From IMG/VR virus record IMGVR_UViG_3300017717_002521, positions 1-64,000 of that record: a stretch of DNA of 64,000 nt. One strand, 5' to 3'. The notes below the pieces were generated by a model. That model made no database searches, was not told the origin of the DNA, and worked only from the letters and a program-made list of their open reading frames with translations. Source of the stretch: a virus. Of the stretch, positions 6,379 through 39,432 are shown piece after piece (within the stretch, counting starts at the first letter, position 1; every line of letters begins with the position of its first letter). Both the position numbers and the translations under genes were made by a program.

Positions 6379-6731
6379 ATTATAAGTCATTAATTTTAGG
6401 ATTGATATTATTTCTTGTGGCACAGTCACTTGCATGGTTTCAAACAAACGGTCAGTTTTTAAGTTCATGGGTAAAGGATCATCCTATACTTGTTTCAGGC
6501 CTTATGGGTATTCCCGTAGGAGCATCGTATATATTTGGTACTACTTATATTGTAGAATTTTTTAACGGACAACTATGGCCGTCTAGAATTATTGCTTTTG
6601 CTACCGGTATATTTAGTTTTTATATTCTGACTTTAATTTTTATGAAAGAAGGAATAAATATTAAAACTGGTACTATATTAGTTCTGGCATCAATGATTAT
6701 AATTTTACAGGTCTTTTGGAAGTATGAATAA
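6375..6731 (+). CDS. Small multi-pass membrane protein
   Basis: 118 aa with about 4 hydrophobic segments. Confidence 0.6.
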   Translation: MNYKSLILGLILFLVAQSLAWFQTNGQFLSSWVKDHPILVSGLMGIPVGASYIFGTTYIVEFFNGQLWPSRIIAFATGIFSFYILTLIFMKEGINIKTGTILVLASMIIILQVFWKYE

Positions 6732-7146
6732 AGCTATAATAGTTAGCGGATATTTTAACCCTCTGCATAAAGGTCATATTGAATTATTTGAAATATCTAA
6801 AGCTATAGGGGATATGCTTATAGTTATTGTAAACTCTGATTTACAGAGATTTTTAAAAGGAAGTAAGGAATTTCAGCTTGAACAAGAAAGGTTAGAAATA
6901 ATCAAAGCTATAAAATATGTAGACTGGGCTATGATTTCTATAGACAAAGACAAAACTCAGAATGAAAGCATTGAAGAGGTTTACGAAATTTATAAAGATA
7001 CTCATAAATTAGCATTTGCTAATGGAGGAGACCAAAATAATGATACTATCCCTGAGTCTAAAGTTTGTAGGAAATTAGGTATAGAATTAATAGAAGGTTT
7101 AGGAAATAAAATGCAATCAAGCAGTTGGTTATTAGATAAAAAATAA
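6724..7146 (+). CDS. Cytidylyltransferase-family nucleotidyltransferase (TagD/RfaE-II-like)
   Basis: SGYFNPLHKGH (HxGH), ANGGD, SSS C-terminal motif. Confidence 0.85.
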   Translation: MNKAIIVSGYFNPLHKGHIELFEISKAIGDMLIVIVNSDLQRFLKGSKEFQLEQERLEIIKAIKYVDWAMISIDKDKTQNESIEEVYEIYKDTHKLAFANGGDQNNDTIPESKVCRKLGIELIEGLGNKMQSSSWLLDKK

Positions 7147-22606: not shown

Positions 22607-22937
22607 GAAAAACACATACTTCGTTGATATTGACGGAACGATATTTATATATAGAAAGTTTGAAACCTATGAAACTTCTGAAGCCCAGGTTATTAAGAGT
22701 ACTAAACAGTACTTACAGCAGGTTAATGACGAAGGTCATATGATTATACTTACTACAGCTCGTCCGGAATATTTAAGAGAGCATACTGAACATGAATTAG
22801 CTAAAAATGGTGTACCTTACCACAAATTAATAATGCAAATTGAAAGAGGACCTAGATATCTTATAAATGATATGGACCCTAAAAAACCTGGCGATCGAGC
22901 AATTGCAATAAATGTAAAAAGAGATGAAGGCATATAG
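22599..22937 (+). CDS. HAD-superfamily phosphatase-like protein
   Basis: FVDIDGTI, LTTAR, LIND. Confidence 0.75.
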   Translation: MDKKNTYFVDIDGTIFIYRKFETYETSEAQVIKSTKQYLQQVNDEGHMIILTTARPEYLREHTEHELAKNGVPYHKLIMQIERGPRYLINDMDPKKPGDRAIAINVKRDEGI

Positions 22938-23289
22938 TTTATTTATAGGAAGGTGGCAACCATGGCATGAAGGCCATAGATGGTTGATCGACCAAAGATT
23001 AAAAGAAGGTAAGAACGTATGGGTAGCTATTAGAGATGTAGAACCTAACGAAAAACAGCCTTGGACTCCTCATGAAGTTCTTATGAACCTATCTGAAGAG
23101 TTAAAAGACCTTTTAGAAGAAGGTAGAATAAAAATCACAATAGTACCAGATATCGAATCTATTAATTACGGTAGAGGTGTGGGTTATGAAGTTATAGAGC
23201 ATGTACCCCCTCAAGATATAAAAGAAATATCTGCTACTAAAATTAGAGAACAGATGAGAAAAAATGGCACAATTATTAACAGAGAATAA
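22924..23289 (+). CDS. HxGH nucleotidyltransferase domain protein
   Basis: IGRWQPWHEGH, YGRGVGY, ISATKIR. Confidence 0.75.
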   Translation: MKAYSLFIGRWQPWHEGHRWLIDQRLKEGKNVWVAIRDVEPNEKQPWTPHEVLMNLSEELKDLLEEGRIKITIVPDIESINYGRGVGYEVIEHVPPQDIKEISATKIREQMRKNGTIINRE

Positions 23290-26582: not shown

Positions 26583-26611
26583 AGTGTCGTAGCACCACTT
26601 TAAAAACACGA
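26583..26611 (+). ncRNA. preQ1-I-like riboswitch candidate
   Basis: P1 AGUG/CACU, loop UCGUAGCAC, tail UUAAAAACACGA; between promoter and ATG of the operon carrying queD and queE. Confidence 0.7.
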
Positions 26612-26614
26612 AAA

Positions 26615-27360: not shown

Positions 27361-28123
27361 AATAGAAGACTACAATAAAAATTTACCAATAGTAGAAGTA
27401 TATACTGCAGTACAATCGGAAGGTTCAAGACAAGGTTTTCCTACTATTGTTATTAGAACTACTGGTTGCACTCATAGGTGTTACTTCGGTGAAGGTGGCT
27501 GGTGTGATAGCTGGTATACAAGTATTCATCCAGAAAAAGGTAAGTTTAATTTTAATGACATTATTAAAGCATATGATGATAATCCTCATATATCAGAAAT
27601 GATGTTAACTGGTGGTTCTCCTACTATGCATGGTAAACTTGTAAATGAACTTACACATTTTGCTAATGAAAGAGATATCTTTATTACAATAGAGAATGAA
27701 GGTAGTCATTTTTTACCTACTGACTATCCTATAGATTTACTTTCTATTAGTCCTAAGTTTAGTAACTCTATTCCTCAACTAGGAGTAGAAACTCCTCAAG
27801 GTAAGATTGTAGATGAAAAAATGATTAAACAGCATAATAAGTTTAGACTTAATAAAGATGCTATAAAAAAGTCAATAGAGTATCATAAGGATTATCATAT
27901 TAAACCTGTATTAGATAAAGATTTAAGGATTTATGGTGAAGTTTATAAATTCTTAGAAGAGTTAGAGATACCTAATGAAAAAGTTTGGTGTATGCCTGCA
28001 GGTGATGATAGAGAATCTTTAATGGAAAGCTACCCAGTTGTTATGGACTTTGTTAGAGATAAAGGATATAGATTTACTGGTAGAGCACATATTATGGCGT
28101 TTAATACTGAAAGAGAAGTATAA
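27347..28123 (+). CDS. queE: 7-carboxy-7-deazaguanine synthase (radical SAM)
   Basis: VQSEG, IRTTGCTHRC...WCDS, LTGGSP, SISPK; adjacent to queD. Confidence 0.92.
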   Translation: MSLGRIEDYNKNLPIVEVYTAVQSEGSRQGFPTIVIRTTGCTHRCYFGEGGWCDSWYTSIHPEKGKFNFNDIIKAYDDNPHISEMMLTGGSPTMHGKLVNELTHFANERDIFITIENEGSHFLPTDYPIDLLSISPKFSNSIPQLGVETPQGKIVDEKMIKQHNKFRLNKDAIKKSIEYHKDYHIKPVLDKDLRIYGEVYKFLEELEIPNEKVWCMPAGDDRESLMESYPVVMDFVRDKGYRFTGRAHIMAFNTEREV

Positions 28124-28271
28124 ATGGAAGATACGTGGAACGAAATAGAAGAGCATCTATCAGTTATACACGGTAATTTAGGTATATGCTGTCAGGAGTA
28201 TTGCGATGCCCCTAATGCAATATACAGTTTAGAAAAATTAACAGAATTATTAATAAAAATTAGAGAAAAAG

Positions 28272-28484
28272 ATGGCACAATACACGGTGATTAAAATGCT
28301 TAAGAAGGAATTCGAAGCAAACAGAGAAAAAGCTTTACTCACACTAGAGTTACTAACTCAACATCCTGCTGGTATTGGTGATCACTCTACAGAGGATTTC
28401 TATAAAAATGCAACTGAAGCTATTGTAGCTTTGGCCGAGGCTGAAGACGTATTAGAGACCATAGAAAGACATTTTGCAGAATGA
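28272..28484 (+). CDS. Hypothetical phage protein
   Basis: 70-aa helical ORF with PAGIGDHS motif. Confidence 0.55.
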   Translation: MAQYTVIKMLKKEFEANREKALLTLELLTQHPAGIGDHSTEDFYKNATEAIVALAEAEDVLETIERHFAE

Positions 28485-28723
28485 AACTACCAGTAATAAG
28501 AAAATTAAGTGAGTTCTCGTTAACTGAAATCAATAACTCAATTAAGTTATTAGAATCTATAACAGATTCAAGAGGAATTACTGAAAATGAGCTTGATGCA
28601 TTAGGAGAAATTTTATCTAATCTTTATGGAGCTCAAAACGTAAGAGAGTCTGTAATGAGAGGTTTAAAAAGAACTGATGCATTAAATAATTTTATGAAAC
28701 GTGTAACATCAGTAGGTAAATGA
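28481..28723 (+). CDS. Bacteroidota-type small protein (DUF6952-like)
   Basis: MKLPVIR...ELDALGEILSNLYGA...ALNNFMKRV. Confidence 0.6.
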   Translation: MKLPVIRKLSEFSLTEINNSIKLLESITDSRGITENELDALGEILSNLYGAQNVRESVMRGLKRTDALNNFMKRVTSVGK

Positions 28724-29028
28724 GTTATATTATAGGTAAACCATGTGAAGCAACTTGTGATACTGCCTGTGTAGCAGTTTGCCCAGTTAACTGTATACAT
28801 GGTCCTATAGATATTGATGGAGCAGGTCAAGAAGTATCAGGTATGGAAATAGGTCCTACCGATATGCTTTACATCAATCCAGACGAATGTATTGACTGTG
28901 GAGCTTGTTTGCCGGAATGTCCAGTTGAAGCTATTTATGATAGTGAAGAAGAGGCTATTGAAAAAGATGGTACTGACACATACGTAAAGAGAAATTATAA
29001 CTTTTTTGGCTTACAATATAATGTATAA
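28720..29028 (+). CDS. Dicluster Fe-S ferredoxin
   Basis: CDTACVAVCPVNCI and LYINPDECIDCGACLPECPVEAI. Confidence 0.92.
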   Translation: MSYIIGKPCEATCDTACVAVCPVNCIHGPIDIDGAGQEVSGMEIGPTDMLYINPDECIDCGACLPECPVEAIYDSEEEAIEKDGTDTYVKRNYNFFGLQYNV

Positions 29029-29386
29029 GTATAAAGCAAAATTAGTAAGGGTTGTAGACGGCGACACTGCCGATGTTATGATAGACCTTGGGTTTAACGT
29101 TTGGACTAAACAAAGATTAAGGTTCAAAGGAGTTGATACTTGGGAAAAAAGAACTCGAGATAAAGAAGAAAAAATAAGAGGTCTAGCTGCTACTGCATTT
29201 ACTACAGAATATTTAGAAAAAAATAATGGACTGTTTACTATTCAATCATATGGAGTGGGTAAATATGGAAGAGTATTAGCAGAAATTTTTATAGAAGGAG
29301 AAAAGAAATCTCTAAATGAGTTATTATTAGAAAATGGCCACGCTTATGTCTACGATGGTGGCAAGAAAAAAGTATTTCAAGGATGA
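29021..29386 (+). CDS. Thermonuclease (SNase) family protein
   Basis: RVVDGDT, GVDTWE, GKYGRVLA, LLENGHAYVYDGG; start likely MYKYKAK. Confidence 0.85.
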   Translation: MYKYKAKLVRVVDGDTADVMIDLGFNVWTKQRLRFKGVDTWEKRTRDKEEKIRGLAATAFTTEYLEKNNGLFTIQSYGVGKYGRVLAEIFIEGEKKSLNELLLENGHAYVYDGGKKKVFQG

Positions 29387-29429
29387 CAAAACCAGAAATA
29401 GTTCAACTTATAGAAGAAAAGCTACAAAA

Positions 29430-29462
29430 AGTTGAATGTTCGAATTCATTTCCTTACATTAT
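29430..29462 (+). promoter_or_regulatory. -33/-7 promoter (AGTTGA-N19-TACATTAT) upstream of the TonB receptor
   Basis: Variant of the recurrent motif with the same spacing. Confidence 0.55.
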
Positions 29463-29542
29463 TGATGAAAGGATATGGACAACTACTGTAGCCTAAAATG
29501 TTATGTTAATGTTTAACCTTAATTTAATCTAAATCAACGAAA

Positions 29543-32017
29543 ATGAGAAAACTCGTTACAGTGCTGTTAATGTTTTTAGCAGTTGGAGCTTACGCTCAAG
29601 AAACGAGTACTGATTCTAAGACCATCTTAGATGTAAACTTAGAAGAAGTTGTTGTATCGTCTAGAGTTATTGATGTCGCAAAAGAAAGAGAGACACCAAT
29701 TGCAGTTAGTACGATCTCAGCACAAGAAGTACTCCTTAAAGTAGGAAACCAAGAGTTTCCAGAAATTATGAACAAGACACCTGGAGTGTATGCTACTAAA
29801 CAAGGAGGAGGATACGGTGATAGTCGTATTTCTTTAAGAGGTTTCGATCAGCGTAATACTTCTTTCCTTATTAACGGTCAACCCGTTAATGATATGGAAA
29901 ATGGTTGGGTTTATTGGTCAAACTGGCAAGGATTGACAGACGTGACGTCTAGCATCCAAATCCAACGTGGTCTTGGTGCCACATCGTTAGCAGTTCCTTC
30001 AGTCGGTGGAACTGTTTCTATTTTCACTAAGAGTGCAGAGAAAGCTCAAGGTGGGTCTATTACTCAAATGGTAGGTAACGACGGTTACATTAAAACAACC
30101 GCTCTTTACAATACTGGAGTAAATGACAAAGGATGGTCTTCTTCTTATTTATTGACTAAATGGTCTGGTAACGGATATATTTACAATACTTCAGGAGCTG
30201 GTTGGACTTATTTTGCATCTGTTGGTTACACACCAGAAGGTTCAAAACATAGCCTAAACTTATCAGTTTTAGGTGCTGGACAATGGCATCATCAAAGAGA
30301 TGTTTGGGTATCTATTAGAGATTACCAGAACTTTGGTAAAGCCGGTATTGATCAGAGATGGAATACTAACGGTGGAACGTTAAATGGTAGTGAGTATAAC
30401 TTACGTAGAAACTTCTACAATAAACCTCTTGCTACTCTAAACTGGGATTGGGATATTTCAGAAAACGTTCAATTAAATACATCTGTATACGGTTCAGCCG
30501 GAAGAGGTGGAGGAACAGGTCCTAGAGGTAGAAACTATTATGAAGGATCTATCGATATGTTACCTTTCCGTAAGGATCTAACAGAACACTACCTAGAAGA
30601 TGGTAAAGGAACTAGAAATGCTGATGGTACTATTAACTATGACGCAGTAGTTGCTCATAACTCACAATACGAAGTAGGGTCTCATAATGATAAAGATTAC
30701 GCTAGAAACGTATTAGTACGAAGAGCATCTATGAACTCTCATAACTGGATTGGAGCTATCTCTAAGCTTAATATCCAGAAAGGTAGTATGAGATATTCAT
30801 TAGGATTAGATCTTAGGGATTACACAGGTTATCACTACAGAGCAATGAATGATCTATTAGGTCTTAATCAATATGCTTCTACTGGTAACCAAAACTTAAG
30901 TACTCAACTATATAATTCATCTGATTTAATATCAGCTAACCCATTTAGAGGTACTAATATTGGTGATAATGAAGCAAAGATTGCTTATTATAATATTGGA
31001 TTTGTAAAATGGGCTGGATTTAACGGATTAGTAGAATATGCTGGTGATAAGATTACTGCAGTACTACAAGCCGGAGCATCTAACCAACAGTTCCAAAGAG
31101 AAGATAGATTTGCAAACGTAGATAATCCTATTTCTGATAAAGCTAACTTAGGTGGTGGATATCTTAAAGGAGGATTAAACTATAACTTTACTGAAAAATC
31201 TAACGTATTTGTAAACGCTGGATTTATTGACCGTCAGCCTTTATTTGACGCAGTATTCCCTAACTTTGGAAATGACGTTAATCCAGACCTACAAAATGAA
31301 CGTATCGAATCATTTGAGATTGGGTATGGTTATATAGGTAAGAGATTAAGACTAAATGTTAATGCATATAACACTAACTGGGGTAATAGATTTGTTTCTA
31401 GAAGTTTATCTAACCAACAAGGTGTAGATGGTACAGCTCAGTTTAGAAATATTGATGTAACACATAAAGGTTTCGAAGCTGAAGGTACTTACACAGTAGG
31501 AGGTACTAAGCTTAGAGGTATGCTATCTATTGGGGATTGGACTTATACTAAAGACTTTGAAGCAGAGTTATTTGATGAGAATCAACAATCTATCGGTACT
31601 GGTAAACTTTACTTAAAAGGAGCTAAAGTAGGAGATGCTGCACAAACTACAGCATTATTAGGTATTGATCAGAAGATTGGGTCGAACATTAGAGTTGATC
31701 TAGATTACAGATTTGTAGATAACCTATACGCTGACTATAGTATTACTGATTCAGCTTTTACTTCTCCTGATAATGATGGAGCGTTAAAACTACCTTCATT
31801 CGGTTTATTAGATTTAGGAGCTACATTTTATGCTAATAATGGATGGTCGTTAAGAGCGAATATTAATAACTTATTAGATGAAACTTATATTGCAGAGTCT
31901 AATAGTAATATTCATACAGATGCTGATTCCACTACTTGGAACGGTGTTGATGTTAGAAATAGTGTTTGGTTCGGCTTCGGTAGAACTTGGAACGTTTCTC
32001 TCAAATATAAATTTTAA
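29543..32017 (+). CDS. TonB-dependent outer-membrane receptor
   Basis: Signal peptide, TonB-box-like LEEVVVSS, plug ISLRGF...LINGQP...IQIQRG, C-terminal NINNLLDETY...GRTWNVSLKYKF. Confidence 0.92.
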   Translation: MRKLVTVLLMFLAVGAYAQETSTDSKTILDVNLEEVVVSSRVIDVAKERETPIAVSTISAQEVLLKVGNQEFPEIMNKTPGVYATKQGGGYGDSRISLRGFDQRNTSFLINGQPVNDMENGWVYWSNWQGLTDVTSSIQIQRGLGATSLAVPSVGGTVSIFTKSAEKAQGGSITQMVGNDGYIKTTALYNTGVNDKGWSSSYLLTKWSGNGYIYNTSGAGWTYFASVGYTPEGSKHSLNLSVLGAGQWHHQRDVWVSIRDYQNFGKAGIDQRWNTNGGTLNGSEYNLRRNFYNKPLATLNWDWDISENVQLNTSVYGSAGRGGGTGPRGRNYYEGSIDMLPFRKDLTEHYLEDGKGTRNADGTINYDAVVAHNSQYEVGSHNDKDYARNVLVRRASMNSHNWIGAISKLNIQKGSMRYSLGLDLRDYTGYHYRAMNDLLGLNQYASTGNQNLSTQLYNSSDLISANPFRGTNIGDNEAKIAYYNIGFVKWAGFNGLVEYAGDKITAVLQAGASNQQFQREDRFANVDNPISDKANLGGGYLKGGLNYNFTEKSNVFVNAGFIDRQPLFDAVFPNFGNDVNPDLQNERIESFEIGYGYIGKRLRLNVNAYNTNWGNRFVSRSLSNQQGVDGTAQFRNIDVTHKGFEAEGTYTVGGTKLRGMLSIGDWTYTKDFEAELFDENQQSIGTGKLYLKGAKVGDAAQTTALLGIDQKIGSNIRVDLDYRFVDNLYADYSITDSAFTSPDNDGALKLPSFGLLDLGATFYANNGWSLRANINNLLDETYIAESNSNIHTDADSTTWNGVDVRNSVWFGFGRTWNVSLKYKF

Positions 32018-32019
32018 TT

Positions 32020-32046
32020 AAAGGGGGCTTCGGCCCCTTTTTTTTT
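32020..32046 (+). terminator. Intrinsic terminator
   Basis: GGGGC-TTCG-GCCCC followed by a T-run. Confidence 0.85.
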
Positions 32047-32051
32047 CTTAT

Positions 32052-32297
32052 ATGGATTGGGATATAGTATTTACGTTTATAATAGTAGGAACGGTTTTAT
32101 TCTTCTATCAATTTGGACAAGATATTTTTGAGAAAAGTAAAATGTTCAAACGTCATAAAGCTAAAGGAGAAGATAGATGGAAATGGGCAACTACCCCGCC
32201 TTATTTTACTTTTAAAAAAATTTTATATTGGGTATTTCTAGCTATAGTTTTAACAGTTACCCTATACTTAGGGTTTAAAATAGAAACAGAATTTTAA
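32052..32297 (+). CDS. Small 2-TM membrane protein
   Basis: Two hydrophobic segments in 81 aa. Confidence 0.55.
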   Translation: MDWDIVFTFIIVGTVLFFYQFGQDIFEKSKMFKRHKAKGEDRWKWATTPPYFTFKKILYWVFLAIVLTVTLYLGFKIETEF

Positions 32298-33089
32298 ATG
32301 AAAAAATTAAATTTTGCAGATTGGGTAGGAATGGGTTTTATTATTATAATGATAATAGTATTTCTTCTTATACCTTCTCCCGCCAAAGCAGATTGGGGTA
32401 AAACAGGACATAGGGTTATAGGACAAATAGCACAAGATAACTTAACTCCCAAAGCCCAAAAAGAAATATCAGATTTACTATACGGCGAAACATTAGCTAC
32501 AGTTAGTACATGGGCAGACGAGATTAGATCTGACTCTTCTTATGACAGTTACAAAGTATGGCATTACGTTAATATGCCTTTAGATAAAAAATATGAAGAA
32601 GTAGAACATACTCAAGACAATGTAGTTATAGGTATTCAAAAATGTATAGCAGTTTTAAAAGATAATTCAGCAAGTAAAGAAGAAAAAATTTTTCATTTAC
32701 GATTTTTAGTACATTTAGTTGGTGATATTCATCAACCTTTACACGTAGGTAGAGCAGAAGACTACGGCGGAAATAAAATATATGTAGAGTTTTTTAAAGA
32801 CGGAACTAATATACATAGAGTATGGGATACCGATATGATTGAAAACTTTAATATGAGTTATACTGAAATATCCGAATATCTACAGTCATATAAAAAACAA
32901 GATTTTGCTCAAGGAGACGCAATATGCTGGGCGAACGAATCTCAACAAATAGTTAAGAAAGTTTATGAAATAGAAGTTGGAGAACAGCTTTCATATTCTT
33001 ATATTTACAGTAACTTCTATATAGTAAAAGATAGGTTATATAGAGCAGGTATCAGATTAGCTAATTTATTAAACTCAATATATGTCTAA
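32298..33089 (+). CDS. S1/P1 nuclease, exported
   Basis: Signal/anchor followed by WGKTGH, WADEIR, WHYVN, HLVGDIHQPLH, HRVWD, AGIRLA. Confidence 0.93.
   Translation: MKKLNFADWVGMGFIIIMIIVFLLIPSPAKADWGKTGHRVIGQIAQDNLTPKAQKEISDLLYGETLATVSTWADEIRSDSSYDSYKVWHYVNMPLDKKYEEVEHTQDNVVIGIQKCIAVLKDNSASKEEKIFHLRFLVHLVGDIHQPLHVGRAEDYGGNKIYVEFFKDGTNIHRVWDTDMIENFNMSYTEISEYLQSYKKQDFAQGDAICWANESQQIVKKVYEIEVGEQLSYSYIYSNFYIVKDRLYRAGIRLANLLNSIYV
32975..33007 (+). promoter_or_regulatory. -33/-7 promoter (AGTTGG-N19-TATATTTA) inside the nuclease gene
   Basis: Exact recurrent motif; would drive the genes from 33082 onward. Confidence 0.6.
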
Positions 33090-33300
33090 AGAACTACTTT
33101 ACAAGATTTTCGTTGTCTTCATCGGTACAGGTTGCATGATGGTCGGACCATTTTTCGTTAACTTCCTACTAGGTAAAATATTATCTGTTATTGGGTTAGC
33201 ATTACTAACAGTTCAAACTCAAAGAACTAAATCTTATAATCTATCTCTACTTAATGTAGTAGGTATATGCGGTTACCTATATAGCATCTTTACTCAATGA
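33082..33300 (+). CDS. Small 3-TM membrane protein (possible half-transporter)
   Basis: 72 aa, three hydrophobic helices, N-x4-N-x5-GY motif shared with 39079..39432. Confidence 0.55.
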   Translation: MSKELLYKIFVVFIGTGCMMVGPFFVNFLLGKILSVIGLALLTVQTQRTKSYNLSLLNVVGICGYLYSIFTQ

Positions 33301-33830
33301 GCAAGTTAATTAATTTATTTGGAGGCCCCGGAATAGGAAAAAGTGGAATTGCAGCAGGTTTAACATATGAATTAAAAAGGAAGCATATAAGTTGTAACAA
33401 CCCTTATGAGTTCCCTAAAAAACTGGCATGGGATAAAAACTATCCAGCTATACAAGATCAGTTATATGTATTTGCTAATCAACATAGAGGTATAGCAGAG
33501 TGTTACAATAAAGTAGACTATATTATCATTGACTCTCCCGTAATGTTTTCTACTATCTATCATAGCTACTATACAAAAGGATACCCAGCAGAAAACTATG
33601 GACAATCGTTTCATAATATGGTAGTTGATCTTCATAATACTTACGATAATCTTAACATACTACTAAAGAGATCGAATACAGAGATTAATGAAGCAGAAAG
33701 ATTTCAAGATCTTAAACAATCTATAGAGATTGATGAATTATGTAAAGCTAAGTTAGAGGAACATAATTTACCGTACGTTGAAATAGAGGTAAATGATGAT
33801 ACAGTAAATGAAATATTAAAATTGTTATAA
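33297..33830 (+). CDS. AAA_28 / NadR-like nucleoside or nucleotide kinase
   Basis: INLFGGPGIGKS, EFPK, IIDSP, ERFQ. Confidence 0.75.
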   Translation: MSKLINLFGGPGIGKSGIAAGLTYELKRKHISCNNPYEFPKKLAWDKNYPAIQDQLYVFANQHRGIAECYNKVDYIIIDSPVMFSTIYHSYYTKGYPAENYGQSFHNMVVDLHNTYDNLNILLKRSNTEINEAERFQDLKQSIEIDELCKAKLEEHNLPYVEIEVNDDTVNEILKLL

Positions 33831-34249
33831 TGGAAAAAAATAAGTTATATTTAAGTTGGAAATGGGTAGACGATCAAATTAATAAAATAGGAGATAAACT
33901 TGAAAGTATAGATTTAGAATTTGTATCTGGTATACCCAGAGGAGGATTAATACCTGCAGTTATGATGTCACATGCATACGGTATTAAGTATATTAGCTAC
34001 TCTTCAGCTAAAATGCTACCATTAGAATTAAGAAAGAAAACCATAGTAATAGATGATATATCAGATACTGGGTTGACTATGTCTGAAGCTGATAAATTAA
34101 AATTTATTACATCTAGTCTCACCACAAGAGTAGGTACTAAAACGTTGCCTAGGCTTACGGGTGAATTGATAAGTGACGATCGCTGGTTAGTATTTCCTTG
34201 GGAAACTTTAGATAGTATTCCTGTTCAAGATTATTTGATGAATTCATAA
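33830..34249 (+). CDS. Type I phosphoribosyltransferase (xanthine/guanine PRT-like)
   Basis: GIPRGGLIPA, PRPP loop IVIDDISDTGLT, WLVFPWE. Confidence 0.88.
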   Translation: MEKNKLYLSWKWVDDQINKIGDKLESIDLEFVSGIPRGGLIPAVMMSHAYGIKYISYSSAKMLPLELRKKTIVIDDISDTGLTMSEADKLKFITSSLTTRVGTKTLPRLTGELISDDRWLVFPWETLDSIPVQDYLMNS

Positions 34250-34255
34250 TGAATA

Positions 34256-34975
34256 ATGAAAAATGCTGTAGTAGTTGTTGATATTAAACAGAAAGGCATA
34301 CATTCTCTTTTACAGTATAACATAAATGCACTTAAACAATATAGTCAACGAACCAGATCTGAATTAATTATTATCAGTTCTAAAATACTTGACCAGAAGT
34401 ATAATCTTCATAAACAAGCTCCATATCCGTATCTTAGGTTTGAAAAAAATCAAATTTACCGTCTTTTCAAAGAATATGATCGAATATTAAGATTGGACAG
34501 TGATACTATGATAATGCAGAACTGCCCTAATTATTTTGATTTAGATCCTAAGAATATGTATGTCACAAGAGAAGATGTTGGAAGTAGAAAAGAACCTAGG
34601 TTAAGACAAATAAAAACTATACAATCACAACTGGGTACTGTAGAAGGCTGGAATAGTTTCTACTTTAATAGCGGTGTCATATTAGCTTCTAGCATACATA
34701 AAGAAGCATTTAATTTAGATAATGTTGACCTGTCAAAAGTAAAAGGTGGACTTCAAGAACAAACGGTTCTTAACTGGCTTACTTTTAAATTAAAATTAAG
34801 TATCGTAGATTTAGGTCCTTATTTTAATTTTATTGAATTTTTTGAAACTGAAAATTTCGGTTTAAGAAAAAACTCCAATATAATACATTATGCTGGTAAA
34901 ACAAACGATAAAAAAGTAAAAGATTTAAAAAGAGATATAACCAACTTTAACAGTAAAAATAAAGAATTAATTTAA
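34256..34975 (+). CDS. Glycosyltransferase family 8-like
   Basis: LDSD, YFNSGV, EQTVLN, IIHYAG. Confidence 0.8.
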   Translation: MKNAVVVVDIKQKGIHSLLQYNINALKQYSQRTRSELIIISSKILDQKYNLHKQAPYPYLRFEKNQIYRLFKEYDRILRLDSDTMIMQNCPNYFDLDPKNMYVTREDVGSRKEPRLRQIKTIQSQLGTVEGWNSFYFNSGVILASSIHKEAFNLDNVDLSKVKGGLQEQTVLNWLTFKLKLSIVDLGPYFNFIEFFETENFGLRKNSNIIHYAGKTNDKKVKDLKRDITNFNSKNKELI

Positions 34976-34976
34976 A

Positions 34977-35669
34977 GTGGATAAAAAATCAATTCTTATT
35001 GTTGGCGTTCATAGATCCGGTACAACCTTTTTAGGTGGCAAACTTGGGAAACAAATAGGAAAGTTTATATCGGAACCTTGGAACTCTTGGGTTCATATTG
35101 ATTCCTACAAAGCTAGTACCTATCCTATCGATAGTTATATCAGTAAATCTGATACTGTTATTAAAACTTTTCCTGATCAATTACCTATTAATTATACAGG
35201 GAGTAAGTTAGATTGGTTATTAGAGGTAGTAGAGTATATAGGGGTAAGTAGGACTATATTAATTAGTAGAAAAAACTTCAAGGAGCATCTAACAAGTTAC
35301 ACAAACCTAATGTACAGAGTATATAAGCATAGACAGTTTTATAAACATACTGGAATATTCGACTCCAGCCTAAAACTACCCGTTCATTCTGAATGGAGAG
35401 AAGAAGATATTCCAGAATGGTATTTAAATCTTAAGGACGAGGAGAAAAAAAATAAGAATGACCTTACTAAAAATAGAGATTTGCTATTTAATCTTTCTAC
35501 TACAATTGATAAGAAAATAACTTGGTATGAGGATTTATTTGGTGGGGATCGAGAAAAATCTCTAGAGATTATCAAGTCGTGGAATTTTAATATTAACGAA
35601 AATAAACTTAATACTGACCTAAATCCTAAGTACAAAAAAAAGAAATCTAATCGAACTGAAATAATATGA
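34977..35669 (+). CDS. Sulfotransferase-like protein
   Basis: 5'-PSB motif GVHRSGTT, SEP, ITWYEDL. Confidence 0.7.
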   Translation: MDKKSILIVGVHRSGTTFLGGKLGKQIGKFISEPWNSWVHIDSYKASTYPIDSYISKSDTVIKTFPDQLPINYTGSKLDWLLEVVEYIGVSRTILISRKNFKEHLTSYTNLMYRVYKHRQFYKHTGIFDSSLKLPVHSEWREEDIPEWYLNLKDEEKKNKNDLTKNRDLLFNLSTTIDKKITWYEDLFGGDREKSLEIIKSWNFNINENKLNTDLNPKYKKKKSNRTEII

Positions 35670-35733: not shown

Positions 35734-35763
35734 TGAGTCGTAGAACCTCAATAAAAACAAAAG
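35734..35763 (+). ncRNA. preQ1-I-like riboswitch candidate
   Basis: P1 UGAG/CUCA, loop UCGUAGAAC, tail AUAAAAACAAAAG ending 3 nt before the folE ATG. Confidence 0.72.
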
Positions 35764-35766
35764 TAA

Positions 35767-37266: not shown

Positions 37267-38061
37267 ATGATTAAAATAGCTCATGAAGCTCCTATAGATA
37301 TTTTTGACGAAGTTCAAAGGTTAACTGATTACGATTACGCTTTAGTTCATTTATTAGAGCAAAATGGTAGATATAGAGATACGTTTGAAAGAGCAGTTAA
37401 AAGAGGTAGAGAAGTTATTTTAGATAACTCTATTTTTGAGTTAGAAGAAGCATTTGAAGCTGATAGATTTGCATTATGGGTTGAAAGATTAAAACCTACT
37501 TGGTATATAGTTCCAGATGCATTGGAGAATGCTGAAAAGACTATGGAACAAGCACTTGATTGGGTTAAAAGTTATAAAAGTATACCTGGGAAAAAAATAG
37601 GTGTTGTTCAAGGTAAAAACTATCACGAGATTGTAGCTTGTTATAAGTTTATGGACACTAGAGATATTGATATGATAGCTATTTCATTCGATTATTCGTA
37701 TTATAGTGATTCTATTCCTCATCCTAACAAGTATGTTAGCTGGATGCTAGGACGTGTTAAGCTACTAGGAGATTTAGAGAGAGACGGTATAATTAATAAA
37801 GATAAACCTCATCACTTACTAGGTTGTGGATTACCTCAAGAATTTAGTTTTTATAAAAATGCTAACTATAAATGGCTCTACTCTTTAGATACTTCTAACC
37901 CAGTAGTCCACGGTCTAAAAGGTATAGAGTATGACAGAGAAGGACTTTGGTCTAAAGAATCTCAAAAGTTACATGAATTAATTAATGTACCTATAGAAGA
38001 GATTGATATTGAGAAAGTAACTAGTAATATAGAGAAGTTTAGATGGCTAACAAATGGATAA
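37267..38061 (+). CDS. dpdA: TGT-fold guanine transglycosylase-like protein (DpdA-like, probably DpdA3 type)
   Basis: ILDNS, IVPD, GVVQG, HHLLG, SLDTSNP correspond to TGT catalytic motifs; located in the que gene cluster. Confidence 0.75.
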   Translation: MIKIAHEAPIDIFDEVQRLTDYDYALVHLLEQNGRYRDTFERAVKRGREVILDNSIFELEEAFEADRFALWVERLKPTWYIVPDALENAEKTMEQALDWVKSYKSIPGKKIGVVQGKNYHEIVACYKFMDTRDIDMIAISFDYSYYSDSIPHPNKYVSWMLGRVKLLGDLERDGIINKDKPHHLLGCGLPQEFSFYKNANYKWLYSLDTSNPVVHGLKGIEYDREGLWSKESQKLHELINVPIEEIDIEKVTSNIEKFRWLTNG

Positions 38062-38570: not shown

Positions 38571-39082
38571 TAAAAAGAATAGCTTTAGTTGGAGCAAGTA
38601 GTACTGGTAAGACTACTGTTTTTGAATTACTTAAGAATAAATTACCTAAGTATGAGTTCGTAAACGAATCTACTCGTAATGTAGCTAAGTACGGATTTCC
38701 TATTAATGAGTTTGGTACTGATGCTACTCAACTTGCTATTAGTAGCTTTCATTTAGAAGCTTTACTTAAACCTTATAATCTTATTCTAGATAGATGTTAT
38801 ATGGATCTTATAGTCTATACTAATCATATGGATGTTGATGATTCTACTAAAGATTATATAGAAGAGACTTGGCATAGAGTAAAAGGAGAGTATACTCATT
38901 ATATTTATTTTCCTATTGAATTTTAATCTGTAGATGATGGAGTAAGAAGTGTTAATGAGGATTGGAGAAAAGATATAGATAATGAATTTAAAAAGTATCT
39001 TGAGACTGTAAGAAAGCCTTACTTAACTATAACTGGTTCTCCTATGCAAAGGGTTAACCAAATATTAGAGTTTATAAAATGA
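38567..39082 (+). pseudogene. AAA_28 / NadR-like kinase interrupted by one in-frame TAA at 38924-38926
   Basis: GASSTGKTT and LDRC; after FPIEF-stop the frame continues SVDDGVRS...TITGSPMQRVNQILEFIK to a TGA at 39080-39082 overlapping the next ATG. Confidence 0.7.
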
Positions 39083-39432
39083 GAGTATGTAATGTCTGTC
39101 ATGAAGAAAAGAGAGATGTTAAATATAAACATGAAAGTAAAAAAACATGTATTAAATGCGAAACCAGATGGTGGAGAGTATTCCTCAGAGCTTTAGTTAA
39201 GGAACGTAGACTTACACCTATAGAGAGAATAGCTAATAGAGCAGGGTATATGGGATCAGCTTTTATTATGATGTCTCCTTACTTATTAAAATACGATAAT
39301 ATAGGAGCATACACATATGTTCTAGGAGCCTTACTTACCATACCTCAAGTATGGATTGCAAAGCAATGGAATATAGTAGCATTGAATATTAACCTTTTAG
39401 TCGGGTATGGACTATACATAATTAATTCTTAA
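39079..39432 (+). CDS. Zn-finger-like N-terminus fused to a 3-TM membrane domain
   Basis: CNVC...CIKC, then three hydrophobic helices similar to 33082..33300. Confidence 0.55.
   Translation: MRVCNVCHEEKRDVKYKHESKKTCIKCETRWWRVFLRALVKERRLTPIERIANRAGYMGSAFIMMSPYLLKYDNIGAYTYVLGALLTIPQVWIAKQWNIVALNINLLVGYGLYIINS

What the first reader, a model, noticed from the sequence alone, without database searches (positions are those of the whole stretch)
29430..34249. Phage-borne TonB receptor, exported S1/P1 nuclease, small transporter, kinase and PRTase: a candidate nucleic-acid scavenging module
Seen: an intact 824-aa TonB-dependent receptor with its own promoter and terminator, followed by an exported S1/P1 nuclease, a 3-TM protein, a NadR-like kinase and a purine PRTase, with a thermonuclease just upstream. 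TonB receptors are normally host proteins and phage receptors, so a phage-encoded one is unusual. Inference: the infected cell imports and degrades external nucleic acid for phosphate or nucleotides, possibly salvaging deazaguanine from sibling lysates. Alternatives are a decoy or superinfection-exclusion role. The terminator at 32020 means these genes are not one simple operon.
Basis: partly seen in the sequence, partly recalled or inferred. Interest (0 to 1): 0.75.

Follow-up and report, generated by a model that had tools for sequence, protein, structure and literature searches.

The report
Phage-borne outer-membrane nucleic-acid scavenging cassette
An uncultured marine phage of Flavobacteriales carries a host-derived outer-membrane importer joined to an exported nuclease, a virus-only small membrane protein and a kinase; this set recurs in many ocean phages and most likely lets infected cells import and trap breakdown products of outside nucleic acid.

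Summary
Window 29543-32017 encodes an intact 824-aa TonB-dependent receptor (TBDR). It is followed by a strong terminator hairpin, an exported S1/P1 nuclease, a 72-aa three-helix membrane protein (3TM), an AAA_28 kinase and a purine-type PRTase. The contig is a 91-kb IMG/VR phage fragment. Contigs from an independent virome and from a seawater run bridge both TBDR junctions, so it is not chimeric.

New here: TBDR-(S1/P1)-(3TM)-kinase is a conserved, phage-specific cassette.
- Of 80 viral loci found through the TBDR, 39 hold the kinase, 22 the 3TM and 21 the S1/P1.
- Loci found through the kinase have the TBDR in 62 of 62 cases with enough upstream DNA.
- Loci found through the 3TM have the kinase in 49 of 53 and the TBDR in 45 of 53.

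Host genomes keep the TBDR ortholog beside pgi and an S1/P1 elsewhere, but lack the kinase and the 3TM. All four genes are under purifying selection.

The PRTase travels with the deazaguanine genes, not with the cassette. The upstream thermonuclease has no signal peptide. No promoter for the TBDR was found.

Best reading (about 0.5): a PUL-like route for nucleic-acid products, closest to the Bacteroidales Ddb locus. Main rivals: unlinked genes, and NARP3-like NAD-precursor import. First-reader notes record similar modules on other DNA.

The parts
29006..29386 (+). SNase-family (thermonuclease-like) nuclease without a signal peptide. It is a neighbour and probably not part of the cassette.
   Evidence: Pfam SNase 1.4e-9 and phrog_452 2.7e-41. 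The N-terminus has no hydrophobic leader. It is adjacent to the TBDR in only one other locus (L006) of 80.
29543..32017 (+). TonB-dependent receptor, 824 aa. It is an ortholog of a pgi-linked receptor of Flavobacteriales.
   Evidence: Plug and barrel domains. Signal peptide, TonB-box-like motif and C-terminal Phe. Up to 74% identical to bacterial orthologs. Interleaved with them in the tree. dN/dS 0.05-0.11 among phage copies. Metatranscriptome contigs cover 29552-31839.
32020..32041 (+). Intrinsic-terminator-like hairpin directly after the TBDR stop codon.
   Evidence: Nine pairs, five of them G-C, a 4-nt loop, then a T run. RNA-library contigs laid on the TBDR end before it, which is only a weak hint.
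32052..32297 (+). 81-aa ORF with two hydrophobic segments, specific to this window.
   Evidence: Translation. A singleton in the clustering of 81 loci. In other loci the S1/P1 or 3TM gene follows the TBDR directly.
32298..33089 (+). Exported S1/P1 zinc nuclease (type I signal peptide, so probably periplasmic).
   Evidence: Pfam 1.1e-65. PDB 8qjl 9e-34, with the alignment starting at mature Trp33. Motifs WGKTGH, WAD, WHY, HLVGDIHQPLH and HRVWD are all present. 46-49% identical to host S1/P1. No hit in 50,697 GenBank phages.
33082..33300 (+). 72-aa three-helix membrane protein (3TM) of a mostly viral family with no Pfam model.
   Evidence: AF2 pLDDT 92.1, helices 3-25, 29-48 and 52-71. Invariant motif QTQxTKxYNLxLLN. 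53 viral loci, 49 with the kinase downstream and 45 with the TBDR upstream. Absent from 5 host genomes. dN/dS 0.02-0.09. 168 clusters of relatives at 50% identity.
33297..33830 (+). P-loop kinase (AAA_28, nucleoside/nucleotide-kinase fold). It overlaps the 3TM gene by 4 nt.
   Evidence: Pfam AAA_28 9.7e-12 and phrog_2107 1.1e-11. Model pLDDT 86.7, with the NadR kinase domain (TMq 0.70), deoxyadenosine kinase and thymidylate kinases as best fold matches. 62 of 62 kinase-seeded loci with enough upstream DNA hold the TBDR. Absent from 5 host genomes.
33830..34249 (+). Purine/xanthine-type phosphoribosyltransferase. It belongs with the FolE/Que (deazaguanine) block rather than the cassette.
   Evidence: phrog_8995 5.6e-16. 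NF006613 XPRT 5.8e-9. PDB 1vdm 8.7e-13. Where the kinase is absent it still sits between the TBDR and FolE (L011, L019, L040).
39079..39432 (+). Paralog of the 3TM protein with an N-terminal zinc ribbon, lying directly upstream of QueF.
   Evidence: BLASTP 5e-5 to the 3TM. Shared invariant G15, Q45, N53 and N58. The family HMM finds only these two genes in the 91-kb record. Directly upstream of QueF in L175, L216 and L218.

Best explanation
The phage carries a compartment-by-compartment import route for breakdown products of extracellular nucleic acid, laid out like a polysaccharide-utilisation locus.
1. A host-derived TonB-dependent receptor takes oligonucleotides or nucleotides across the outer membrane. 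It is probably made in excess, since a terminator follows it.
2. An exported S1/P1 nuclease cuts them in the periplasm to mononucleotides, or to nucleosides through its 3'-nucleotidase activity. Some sister phages add a surface lipoprotein Endonuclease_NS.
3. The virus-only 3TM protein acts at the inner membrane as a small carrier or as a partner of a host carrier.
4. The cytoplasmic kinase phosphorylates the imported nucleoside or nucleotide. This traps it and feeds the phage's RNR, ThyA and polymerase.

Shown: the genes are intact, under purifying selection and linked across many phages, and their predicted locations cover all compartments. Inferred: the substrate, the transport role of the 3TM protein and the substrate of the kinase.
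For: - Gene identities and predicted locations.
- Linkage: in 80 TBDR-seeded viral loci the kinase is present in 39, the 3TM in 22 and S1/P1 in 21, always on the same strand downstream but with differing flanks. 3TM-seeded loci: 49 of 53 with the kinase, 45 of 53 with the TBDR. Kinase-seeded loci: 62 of 62 with the TBDR.
- The S1/P1-3TM-kinase block is present or absent between the TBDR and the PRTase in otherwise syntenic genomes.
- Exported nucleases of two unrelated families flank the TBDR. S1/P1 has type I signal peptides. Endonuclease_NS has a lipobox in 7 of 9 loci.
- GMP-reductase-like, RNR and thioredoxin genes lie upstream.
- Five host genomes lack the kinase and the 3TM, but 4 of 5 have S1/P1.
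- Purifying selection acts on all four genes.
- The best full-length paralog of the TBDR in four host genomes is the receptor of a Ddb-like trio (EEP nuclease, TBDT, DUF5689). In three of them it lies a few kb away, and 8 of 80 bacterial loci hold such a trio. The Ddb locus is shown experimentally to deplete DNA (PMC12478041).
- Wider relatives of the kinase sit in phage replication and nucleotide regions.
- Distant 3TM relatives are followed by a HAD-like gene and PPK2, and one is fused to DHFR.
- RNA-library contigs match the TBDR.
Against: - The TBDR substrate is unknown. The bacterial ortholog sits beside pgi and a small 4-helix membrane protein, not beside nucleases.
- The Ddb-type receptor is only a 25-27% identical paralog, and no DUF5689 lid occurs in the viral loci.
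- Half of the TBDR-bearing phages lack the kinase, and about 70% lack an exported nuclease next to the TBDR.
- The 3TM protein has no demonstrable relation to any transporter. No Pfam family reached significance (best E 0.014), hhalign against PnuC gave 0.2% probability, and the fold searches were non-specific.
- S1/P1 yields 5'-nucleotides, which normally need dephosphorylation before crossing the inner membrane. No phosphatase is in the cassette.
- The kinase could simply be a dNMP kinase for recycling host DNA.
Confidence: 0.5

Rival explanations
1. Loose association. The TBDR is an auxiliary gene that keeps an unrelated host nutrient import running during infection (iron, a vitamin or another compound). 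The kinase is an ordinary phage (d)NMP kinase of the nucleotide-metabolism module, and they are neighbours only through shared ancestry of these genomes.
For: - The TBDR occurs without the kinase in about half of the loci.
- Relatives of the kinase in other phages are annotated thymidylate kinase and lie beside polymerase genes with no transporter.
- Bacterial orthologs have housekeeping neighbours.
- The best NCBIfam hits are generic iron or heme receptor subfamilies, far below their cut-offs.
Against: - The kinase subfamily is never seen without the TBDR (62 of 62), and the 3TM protein almost never is.
- The block keeps its order while the flanks change, and it comes and goes as a unit.
- The tree mixes phage and host TBDRs, so the linkage has survived several exchanges.
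- The TBDR lacks the heme-receptor FRAP/NPNL motifs, and no riboswitch precedes the bacterial orthologs.
Confidence: 0.2
2. NAD-precursor import, that is NARP3 with an added outer-membrane step. The TBDR takes up NAD, NMN or nicotinamide riboside. The 3TM protein plays the part of PnuC, and the kinase phosphorylates nicotinamide riboside. This would counter NAD-depleting host defences.
For: - The kinase matches AAA_28, and its best fold match is the ribosylnicotinamide-kinase domain of NadR.
- The membrane-protein gene overlaps the kinase gene, as PnuC and the RNK-like kinase do in all five host genomes examined.
- NARP3 is published (PMC13464706).
- SemiSWEET, PnuC and SWEET structures appear among the top 30 Foldseek rows, though all have E > 2.
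- A 121-aa ORF at 22924-23289 weakly resembles NMN adenylyltransferase.
Against: - The 3TM protein is not a PnuC homolog by sequence.
- The kinase has no adenylyltransferase domain and no NCBIfam NadR hit, and it is only about 23% identical to host RNK-like kinases.
- No NAMPT-type gene is in the record.
- The exported nucleases and the GMP reductase have no role in this route.
- The wider kinase family lies in DNA-precursor contexts.
Confidence: 0.15
3. Receptor mimicry or exclusion. The phage copy replaces or outnumbers the host receptor that these or rival phages adsorb to. This would block superinfection or stop progeny being lost on debris.
For: - TBDRs are common phage receptors (general knowledge).
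- Phage copies track the orthologs of their likely hosts in the tree, which suggests repeated exchange.
- The window's copy lacks the N-terminal extension present in many relatives.
Against: - The plug, the TonB box and all invariant family positions are kept, and dN/dS is 0.05-0.11, as expected for a working transporter.
- This reading does not explain the obligate company of the kinase, the 3TM protein and the exported nucleases.
Confidence: 0.08

Closest known systems
Ddb DNA-utilisation locus of gut Bacteroidales (ddbABCDEF) and the related Riemerella anatipestifer transformation genes (PMC12478041)
   Same: A Bacteroidota outer-membrane TonB-dependent transporter is combined with a lipoprotein (SPII) extracellular nuclease and a type I signal-peptide (SPI) periplasmic nuclease, laid out like a polysaccharide-utilisation locus. 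Marine hosts carry a Ddb-like trio (EEP nuclease, TBDT, DUF5689) a few kb from the ortholog of the phage TBDR.
   Different: The phage receptor is a different branch (25-27% identity to the Ddb-type paralog). There is no DUF5689 lid. The nuclease families differ (S1/P1 and Endonuclease_NS). The phage adds a virus-only inner-membrane protein and a kinase, and the whole set is on a phage.
NARP3 (phage PnuC-like transporter plus NadR-like enzyme; PMC13464706) and the bacterial PnuC-NadR pair
   Same: A phage-encoded small-molecule import step sits next to a P-loop kinase of the AAA_28/NadR type, which suggests trapping by phosphorylation. The genes overlap as they do in the host PnuC-kinase pairs.
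   Different: The membrane protein has 72 aa and three helices, with no detectable PnuC homology. The kinase lacks the adenylyltransferase domain. An outer-membrane receptor and a nuclease are added.
Trypanosomatid surface 3'-nucleotidase/nuclease (class I, S1/P1 family) used for purine salvage (from my own knowledge, not checked here)
   Same: An exported S1/P1-family enzyme makes transportable purine compounds from outside nucleic acid for a cell that needs purines.
   Different: That is a eukaryotic surface enzyme working with nucleoside permeases. Here the setting is a Gram-negative envelope with a TonB-dependent step, and the genes are viral.
TonB-dependent receptor (SusC-like) genes noted in megaphages such as Mar_Mega_1 and LR745206 (PMC9723777)
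   Same: A phage-encoded TBDR in phages of Bacteroidota, proposed as an auxiliary uptake gene.
   Different: Those are only distant relatives (26-32% identity over the plug region). They were mentioned in passing as possible sugar importers, with no linked nuclease, 3TM or kinase set described.

Membership tests
TonB-dependent receptor | Plug domain followed by a 22-strand barrel domain | tested here: met
   PF07715 3.1e-13 and PF00593 6.1e-16, both above their cut-offs.
TonB-dependent receptor | Signal peptide, N-terminal TonB box and C-terminal aromatic residue | tested here: met
   Leader ending AYAQ, LEEVVVSS near residue 33, and a C-terminus of KYKF. Judged by eye from the sequence, not by a predictor.
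S1/P1 nuclease | Family profile match with the nine zinc ligands, including the N-terminal Trp of the mature protein | tested here: met
   PF02265 1.1e-65. The alignment to 8qjl starts at Trp33. All ligand motifs are present.
Ddb DNA-utilisation locus | DdbC-type TonB-dependent transporter | tested here: not met
   The DUF5689-adjacent receptors form a separate long branch and are 25-27% identical to the phage TBDR.
Ddb DNA-utilisation locus | DUF5689 (DdbD) partner next to the transporter | tested here: not met
   tblastn with a bacterial DUF5689 protein found none in the 80 viral loci.
Ddb DNA-utilisation locus | Secreted nucleases with SPII (surface) and SPI (periplasm) signals beside the transporter | tested here: inconclusive
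   An SPI-type S1/P1 is present in the window. An SPII Endonuclease_NS occurs only in sister phages, 7 of 9 with a lipobox. The enzyme families were not compared with DdbA, DdbB or DdbF.
NARP3 / PnuC-NadR | PnuC-family transporter (PF04973) | tested here: not met
   No PF04973 hit for any of 16 family members at E up to 10. hhalign against five host PnuC sequences gave 0.2% probability.
NARP3 / PnuC-NadR | Bifunctional NadR-like enzyme (NMN adenylyltransferase plus ribosylnicotinamide kinase) | tested here: not met
   The protein is a single 177-aa P-loop domain with no NCBIfam NadR hit. Only the kinase fold resembles NadR.
SemiSWEET / triple-helix-bundle carriers | Three-helix bundle with the 1-3-2 arrangement that dimerises to form a pore | tested here: inconclusive
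   Foldseek lists 4rng, 5uhq, 4x5n, 4qtn and 5xpd among its top 30 rows, but all have E > 2. VIA-align gives generic three-helix bundles.
Nucleoside/nucleotide kinase (AAA_28, dNK, TMPK fold) | Walker A P-loop, a Walker B-like Asp after strand 3, and a fold match to solved kinases | tested here: met
   GGPGIGKS and IIDSP are invariant. 75 PDB chains match at E <= 0.001, and the top-ranked rows are nearly all nucleoside or nucleotide kinases. The substrate was not tested.

The most novel reading that the evidence does not exclude
Marine Flavobacteriales phages install a complete, self-encoded route for feeding on dissolved nucleic acid. It would consist of a surface or periplasmic nuclease, a TonB-dependent gate, a new family of 3-helix inner-membrane carriers found mostly in viruses, and a trapping kinase. 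Infected cells would then turn outside DNA or RNA, including the debris of earlier lysis, into phage DNA precursors. The 3TM family would be a new class of minimal nucleoside or nucleobase carrier.
Probability: 0.3. Interest if true: 0.85.

Novelty: new variant of a known kind. Interest (0 to 1): 0.7.

Why it matters
Phage auxiliary genes are known for phosphate uptake, photosynthesis and NAD repair. An outer-membrane import line for nucleic-acid products carried by phages has not been described in the papers I could search.

The receptor family occurs on at least 424 IMG/VR contigs, and the linked kinase on at least 153. If the reading is right, a sizeable group of ocean phages would redirect dissolved DNA and RNA, a major pool of organic phosphorus and nitrogen, into virus production.

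It also gives handles on two uncharacterised families. One is a receptor found in about 600 or more Bacteroidota species. The other is a small membrane-protein family found mostly in viruses (168 clusters at 50% identity). The phage context offers a testable substrate guess for both.

Tried and rejected
- **Substrate by homology.** phmmer of the TBDR against PDB gave nothing. A family profile gave only generic plug or C-terminal matches to siderophore, PQQ and metallophore receptors. NCBIfam hits were far below their cut-offs.
- **Regulatory RNAs.** The Rfam scan found no riboswitch in the window or in front of eight bacterial orthologs.
- **Heme receptor idea.** No FRAP or NPNL motifs are present.
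- **My earlier reading of the bacterial nuclease link.** I first took the EEP-nuclease/DUF5689 neighbours to flank the ortholog. The tree showed that they flank a distant paralog, so I corrected this.
- **3TM as a half-PnuC or SemiSWEET.** Pfam, PDB profile search, ESM Atlas, hhalign and two fold searches gave no significant link.
- **Duplicated 3TM-kinase pair.** The second 3TM paralog is not consistently next to the second kinase. It is more often directly upstream of QueF.
- **Distant kinase relatives.** Those in GenBank phages have no 3TM neighbour.
- **Structural genes.** No Terminase_6N match in the 91-kb record. The record is about 55% complete, so this says little.
- **RNA runs.** Nearly no contigs were laid downstream of 31978 (one 190-nt X15 contig at 33140-33329). 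Contigs cannot show absence.

Full report
**What is there**

The window is the first 64 kb of a 91,139-bp linear IMG/VR virus record that CheckV estimates at about 55% complete. All sizeable ORFs lie on the + strand. Phage replication and nucleotide genes lie on both sides of the finding: a DnaB-like helicase, class I RNR, two carbamoyltransferases, DNA polymerase and GroEL.

The immediate neighbourhood, reads in order:
- ThyA, QueD, QueE, DUF6952, ferredoxin, SNase;
- the TBDR, a terminator, an 81-aa ORF, S1/P1, the 3TM protein, the kinase, the PRTase;
- GT8, an unknown gene, FolE, a MazG-like gene, a possible TGT-like gene, a formyltransferase-like gene, a second AAA_28 kinase, a zinc-ribbon 3TM paralog, QueF.

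The finding therefore sits inside a 7-deazaguanine and nucleotide block.

**The observation**

- The TBDR is intact. It has Plug and barrel domains, a leader ending AYAQ, a TonB-box-like LEEVVVSS and a terminal Phe.
- The hairpin at 32020-32041 is a strong terminator-like element.
- S1/P1 is unambiguous (Pfam 1e-65). The solved bacterial enzyme 8qjl aligns from its mature Trp1 to Trp33 of the phage protein, behind a hydrophobic leader, and all zinc-ligand motifs are kept.
- The 72-aa protein folds as three long helices with pLDDT 92.
- The kinase model (pLDDT 86.7) is closest to the kinase domain of NadR (TMq 0.70), then to deoxyadenosine and thymidylate kinases.
- The PRTase resembles archaeal purine PRTase and XPRT.

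Three details do not hold. No sigma-70-like promoter was found in front of the TBDR, and a 37-aa ORF fills most of that gap. The thermonuclease has no signal peptide. The 81-aa ORF after the terminator is unique to this phage.

**Not a misassembly**

Fourteen public runs, mostly viromes, hold at least 94% of the sampled words of 28000-35000.

Contigs of a virome run not flagged as the source (X10) and of a seawater run (X7) bridge the left junction (28000-29844 and 28917-30039). They also bridge the right junction (31819-33099 and 31403-33481).

Two metatranscriptome libraries of one study hold contigs with few or no mismatches to the TBDR gene from 29552 to 31839. They have almost nothing downstream of the terminator. 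This is a weak hint of strong TBDR expression, because contigs cannot rank genes and DNA carry-over is possible.

**A conserved phage cassette**

The TBDR family is large: more than 7,800 metagenome proteins, 424 stretches in IMG/VR and at least 598 GTDB species, nearly all Bacteroidota and mostly Flavobacteriales.

I clustered the ORFs of the 80 best viral loci.
- The TBDR is followed on the same strand by the kinase in 39 loci. That is 37 of the 66 loci with at least three downstream genes.
- The 3TM protein follows in 22 loci and S1/P1 in 21.
- The observed orders are TBDR-S1/P1-3TM-kinase, TBDR-3TM-S1/P1-kinase, TBDR-3TM-kinase and TBDR-kinase.
- The flanks differ: Que/ferredoxin, RNR, a GMP-reductase-like gene, or T4-like PolB and clamp-loader genes.
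- In otherwise syntenic genomes the S1/P1-3TM-kinase block is simply present or absent between the TBDR and the PRTase. Compare L005, L008 and L052 with L011, L019 and L040.

The PRTase therefore belongs to the FolE/Que block, not to the cassette.

Independent seeds give the reverse conditional. Of 53 viral loci found with the 3TM profile, 49 have the kinase directly downstream and 45 have the TBDR directly upstream. Most of the exceptions are cut by contig ends. Of 80 loci found with the kinase profile, all 62 with enough upstream DNA hold the TBDR.

So the TBDR can stand alone, but this kinase subfamily and the 3TM protein essentially never occur without it.

**Hosts**

In bacteria the ortholog lies in a housekeeping context: UvrC, DUF3108, an M23 peptidase, PGI, the TBDR, and a 145-aa four-helix His-rich membrane protein. 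No kinase or 3TM gene lies nearby.

Five host-type genomes lack both genes altogether. These are Polaribacter, Robiginitalea, Maribacter, Tenacibaculum and MS024-3C. Four of the five carry an S1/P1 elsewhere that is 46-49% identical to the phage enzyme.

In a FastTree phylogeny of 170 receptors, phage and pgi-linked bacterial copies interleave with good local support. This implies several host-phage exchanges. The closest bacterial copies are 72-74% identical. A few MAG contigs that carry S1/P1 or are identical to viral contigs (L083, L085, L099) are probably mis-binned phage.

Among close phage pairs dN/dS is 0.05-0.11 for the TBDR, 0.02-0.09 for the 3TM protein, 0.06-0.13 for the kinase and about 0.3 for S1/P1, where dS is near saturation.

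**What points to nucleic acid**

- Besides S1/P1, nine sister loci have an Endonuclease_NS gene at or just upstream of the TBDR. Seven of these have a lipobox and two a type I signal peptide.
- Taken together, 25 of 80 loci have an exported nuclease beside the TBDR.
- Fifteen loci have a 356-aa IMPDH/GMP-reductase-like gene directly upstream. Others have RNR and thioredoxin.
- In four host genomes the best full-length paralog of the phage TBDR is the receptor of a trio of EEP nuclease, TBDT and DUF5689/LTD protein (25-27% identity). In three of them it lies only a few kb from the ortholog, and 8 of 80 bacterial loci hold such a trio.
- That trio matches the published Ddb DNA-utilisation and transformation loci, where DdbC is the TBDT, DdbD the DUF5689 partner, and SPII and SPI nucleases act outside and in the periplasm (PMC12478041).
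- Relatives of the kinase in 85 GenBank phages (30-41% identity) are annotated thymidylate kinase or P-loop NTPase. They sit beside polymerase, QueE-like or PRTase-like genes.
- The 3TM family has 168 clusters at 50% identity, nearly all small proteins. One member is fused to DHFR. Distant members are followed by a gene with a HAD-type DxDxT motif (read by eye) and by PPK2. The window's paralog lies directly upstream of QueF.

Every context is nucleotide or purine metabolism.

**What remains open**

The TBDR substrate is not established by any direct line. There is no riboswitch, no heme motif and no informative solved relative.

The 3TM protein cannot be tied to PnuC or SemiSWEET. No Pfam family reached significance (best E 0.014) and the PDB profile search found nothing. 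hhalign gave 0.2% probability against host PnuC. In Foldseek, SemiSWEET, PnuC and SWEET chains are among the top 30 rows, but all have E > 2. VIA-align returned generic three-helix bundles. The dimer test could not be run.

The analogy with PnuC-NadR is real at the level of gene layout. All five host genomes have overlapping PnuC and RNK-like kinase genes, and NARP3 is a published phage version of that pair (PMC13464706). However, the defining NARP3 features are not met.

**Verdict**

The cassette is real, widespread, phage-specific in its combination, and under selection.
- The most economical mechanism is a PUL-like import and trapping route for nucleic-acid products (about 0.5).
- Loose association of a generic uptake gene with a dNMP kinase is next (about 0.2).
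- NAD-precursor import follows (about 0.15).
- Receptor mimicry is least likely (under 0.1).

First-reader notes of this scan record similar sets of receptor, nuclease and AAA_28 kinase in phages on other DNA. I did not check those notes. I found no paper describing the set. Phage TBDRs have only been mentioned in passing for megaphages (PMC9723777).

Noticed in passing
window 26583-26614 and 35734-35766: Other first-reader notes propose preQ1-I riboswitches here. An Rfam scan of the whole window at gathering thresholds returned no match at all. Small aptamers can fall below threshold, so this does not rule them out.
   Followed up: partly
window 39079-39432: A paralog of the 3TM protein with an N-terminal CxxC...CxxC zinc ribbon. 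In this window and in L175, L216 and L218 it sits directly upstream of QueF, and only loosely near the second AAA_28 kinase. It might act on a deazapurine base.
   Followed up: partly
L093, L102, L118, L119, L127, L128, L133 (about 3-8 kb downstream of the pgi-linked TBDR): Marine Flavobacteriaceae carry a trio of EEP nuclease (PF19580), a divergent TBDT and a DUF5689 plus lamin-tail-domain protein. This looks like the Ddb/transformation locus described in gut Bacteroidales and Riemerella (PMC12478041).
   Followed up: partly
L087:10612-11052, L135:10694-11131 and relatives: A conserved 145-aa four-helix membrane protein with invariant His residues follows the bacterial TBDR ortholog in 20 loci. 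It has only weak DUF2231 and 8xMP hits, and it is absent from the phages.
   Followed up: partly
L287-L291 (host genomes): All five host-type genomes have overlapping genes for PnuC and a stand-alone NadR-type ribosylnicotinamide-kinase domain. An 86-aa ORF of unknown function precedes PnuC in four of them.
   Followed up: partly
window 22924-23289 and 6724-7146: Two small cytidylyl/adenylyltransferase-like ORFs. The first has its best (sub-threshold) hits to archaeal-type NMN adenylyltransferase, and the second to RfaE domain II and glycerol-3-phosphate cytidylyltransferase.
   Followed up: partly
P0153; L294:4001-5913; L295:4001-4682: Distant members of the 3TM family occur fused to dihydrofolate reductase (P0153). 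Others sit directly upstream of a gene with a HAD-type DxDxT motif (L294, L295), and in L294 a polyphosphate kinase 2 follows further downstream.
   Followed up: partly
window 29383-29496: A 37-aa ORF overlaps the SNase stop codon (ATGA) and fills most of the space before the TBDR. I did not test whether it is a real gene.
   Followed up: no
window 37267-38061: A 264-aa ORF between the MazG-like and formyltransferase-like genes has only a very weak TGT (queuine tRNA-ribosyltransferase) match. It may be a divergent DpdA-type DNA transglycosylase.
   Followed up: no
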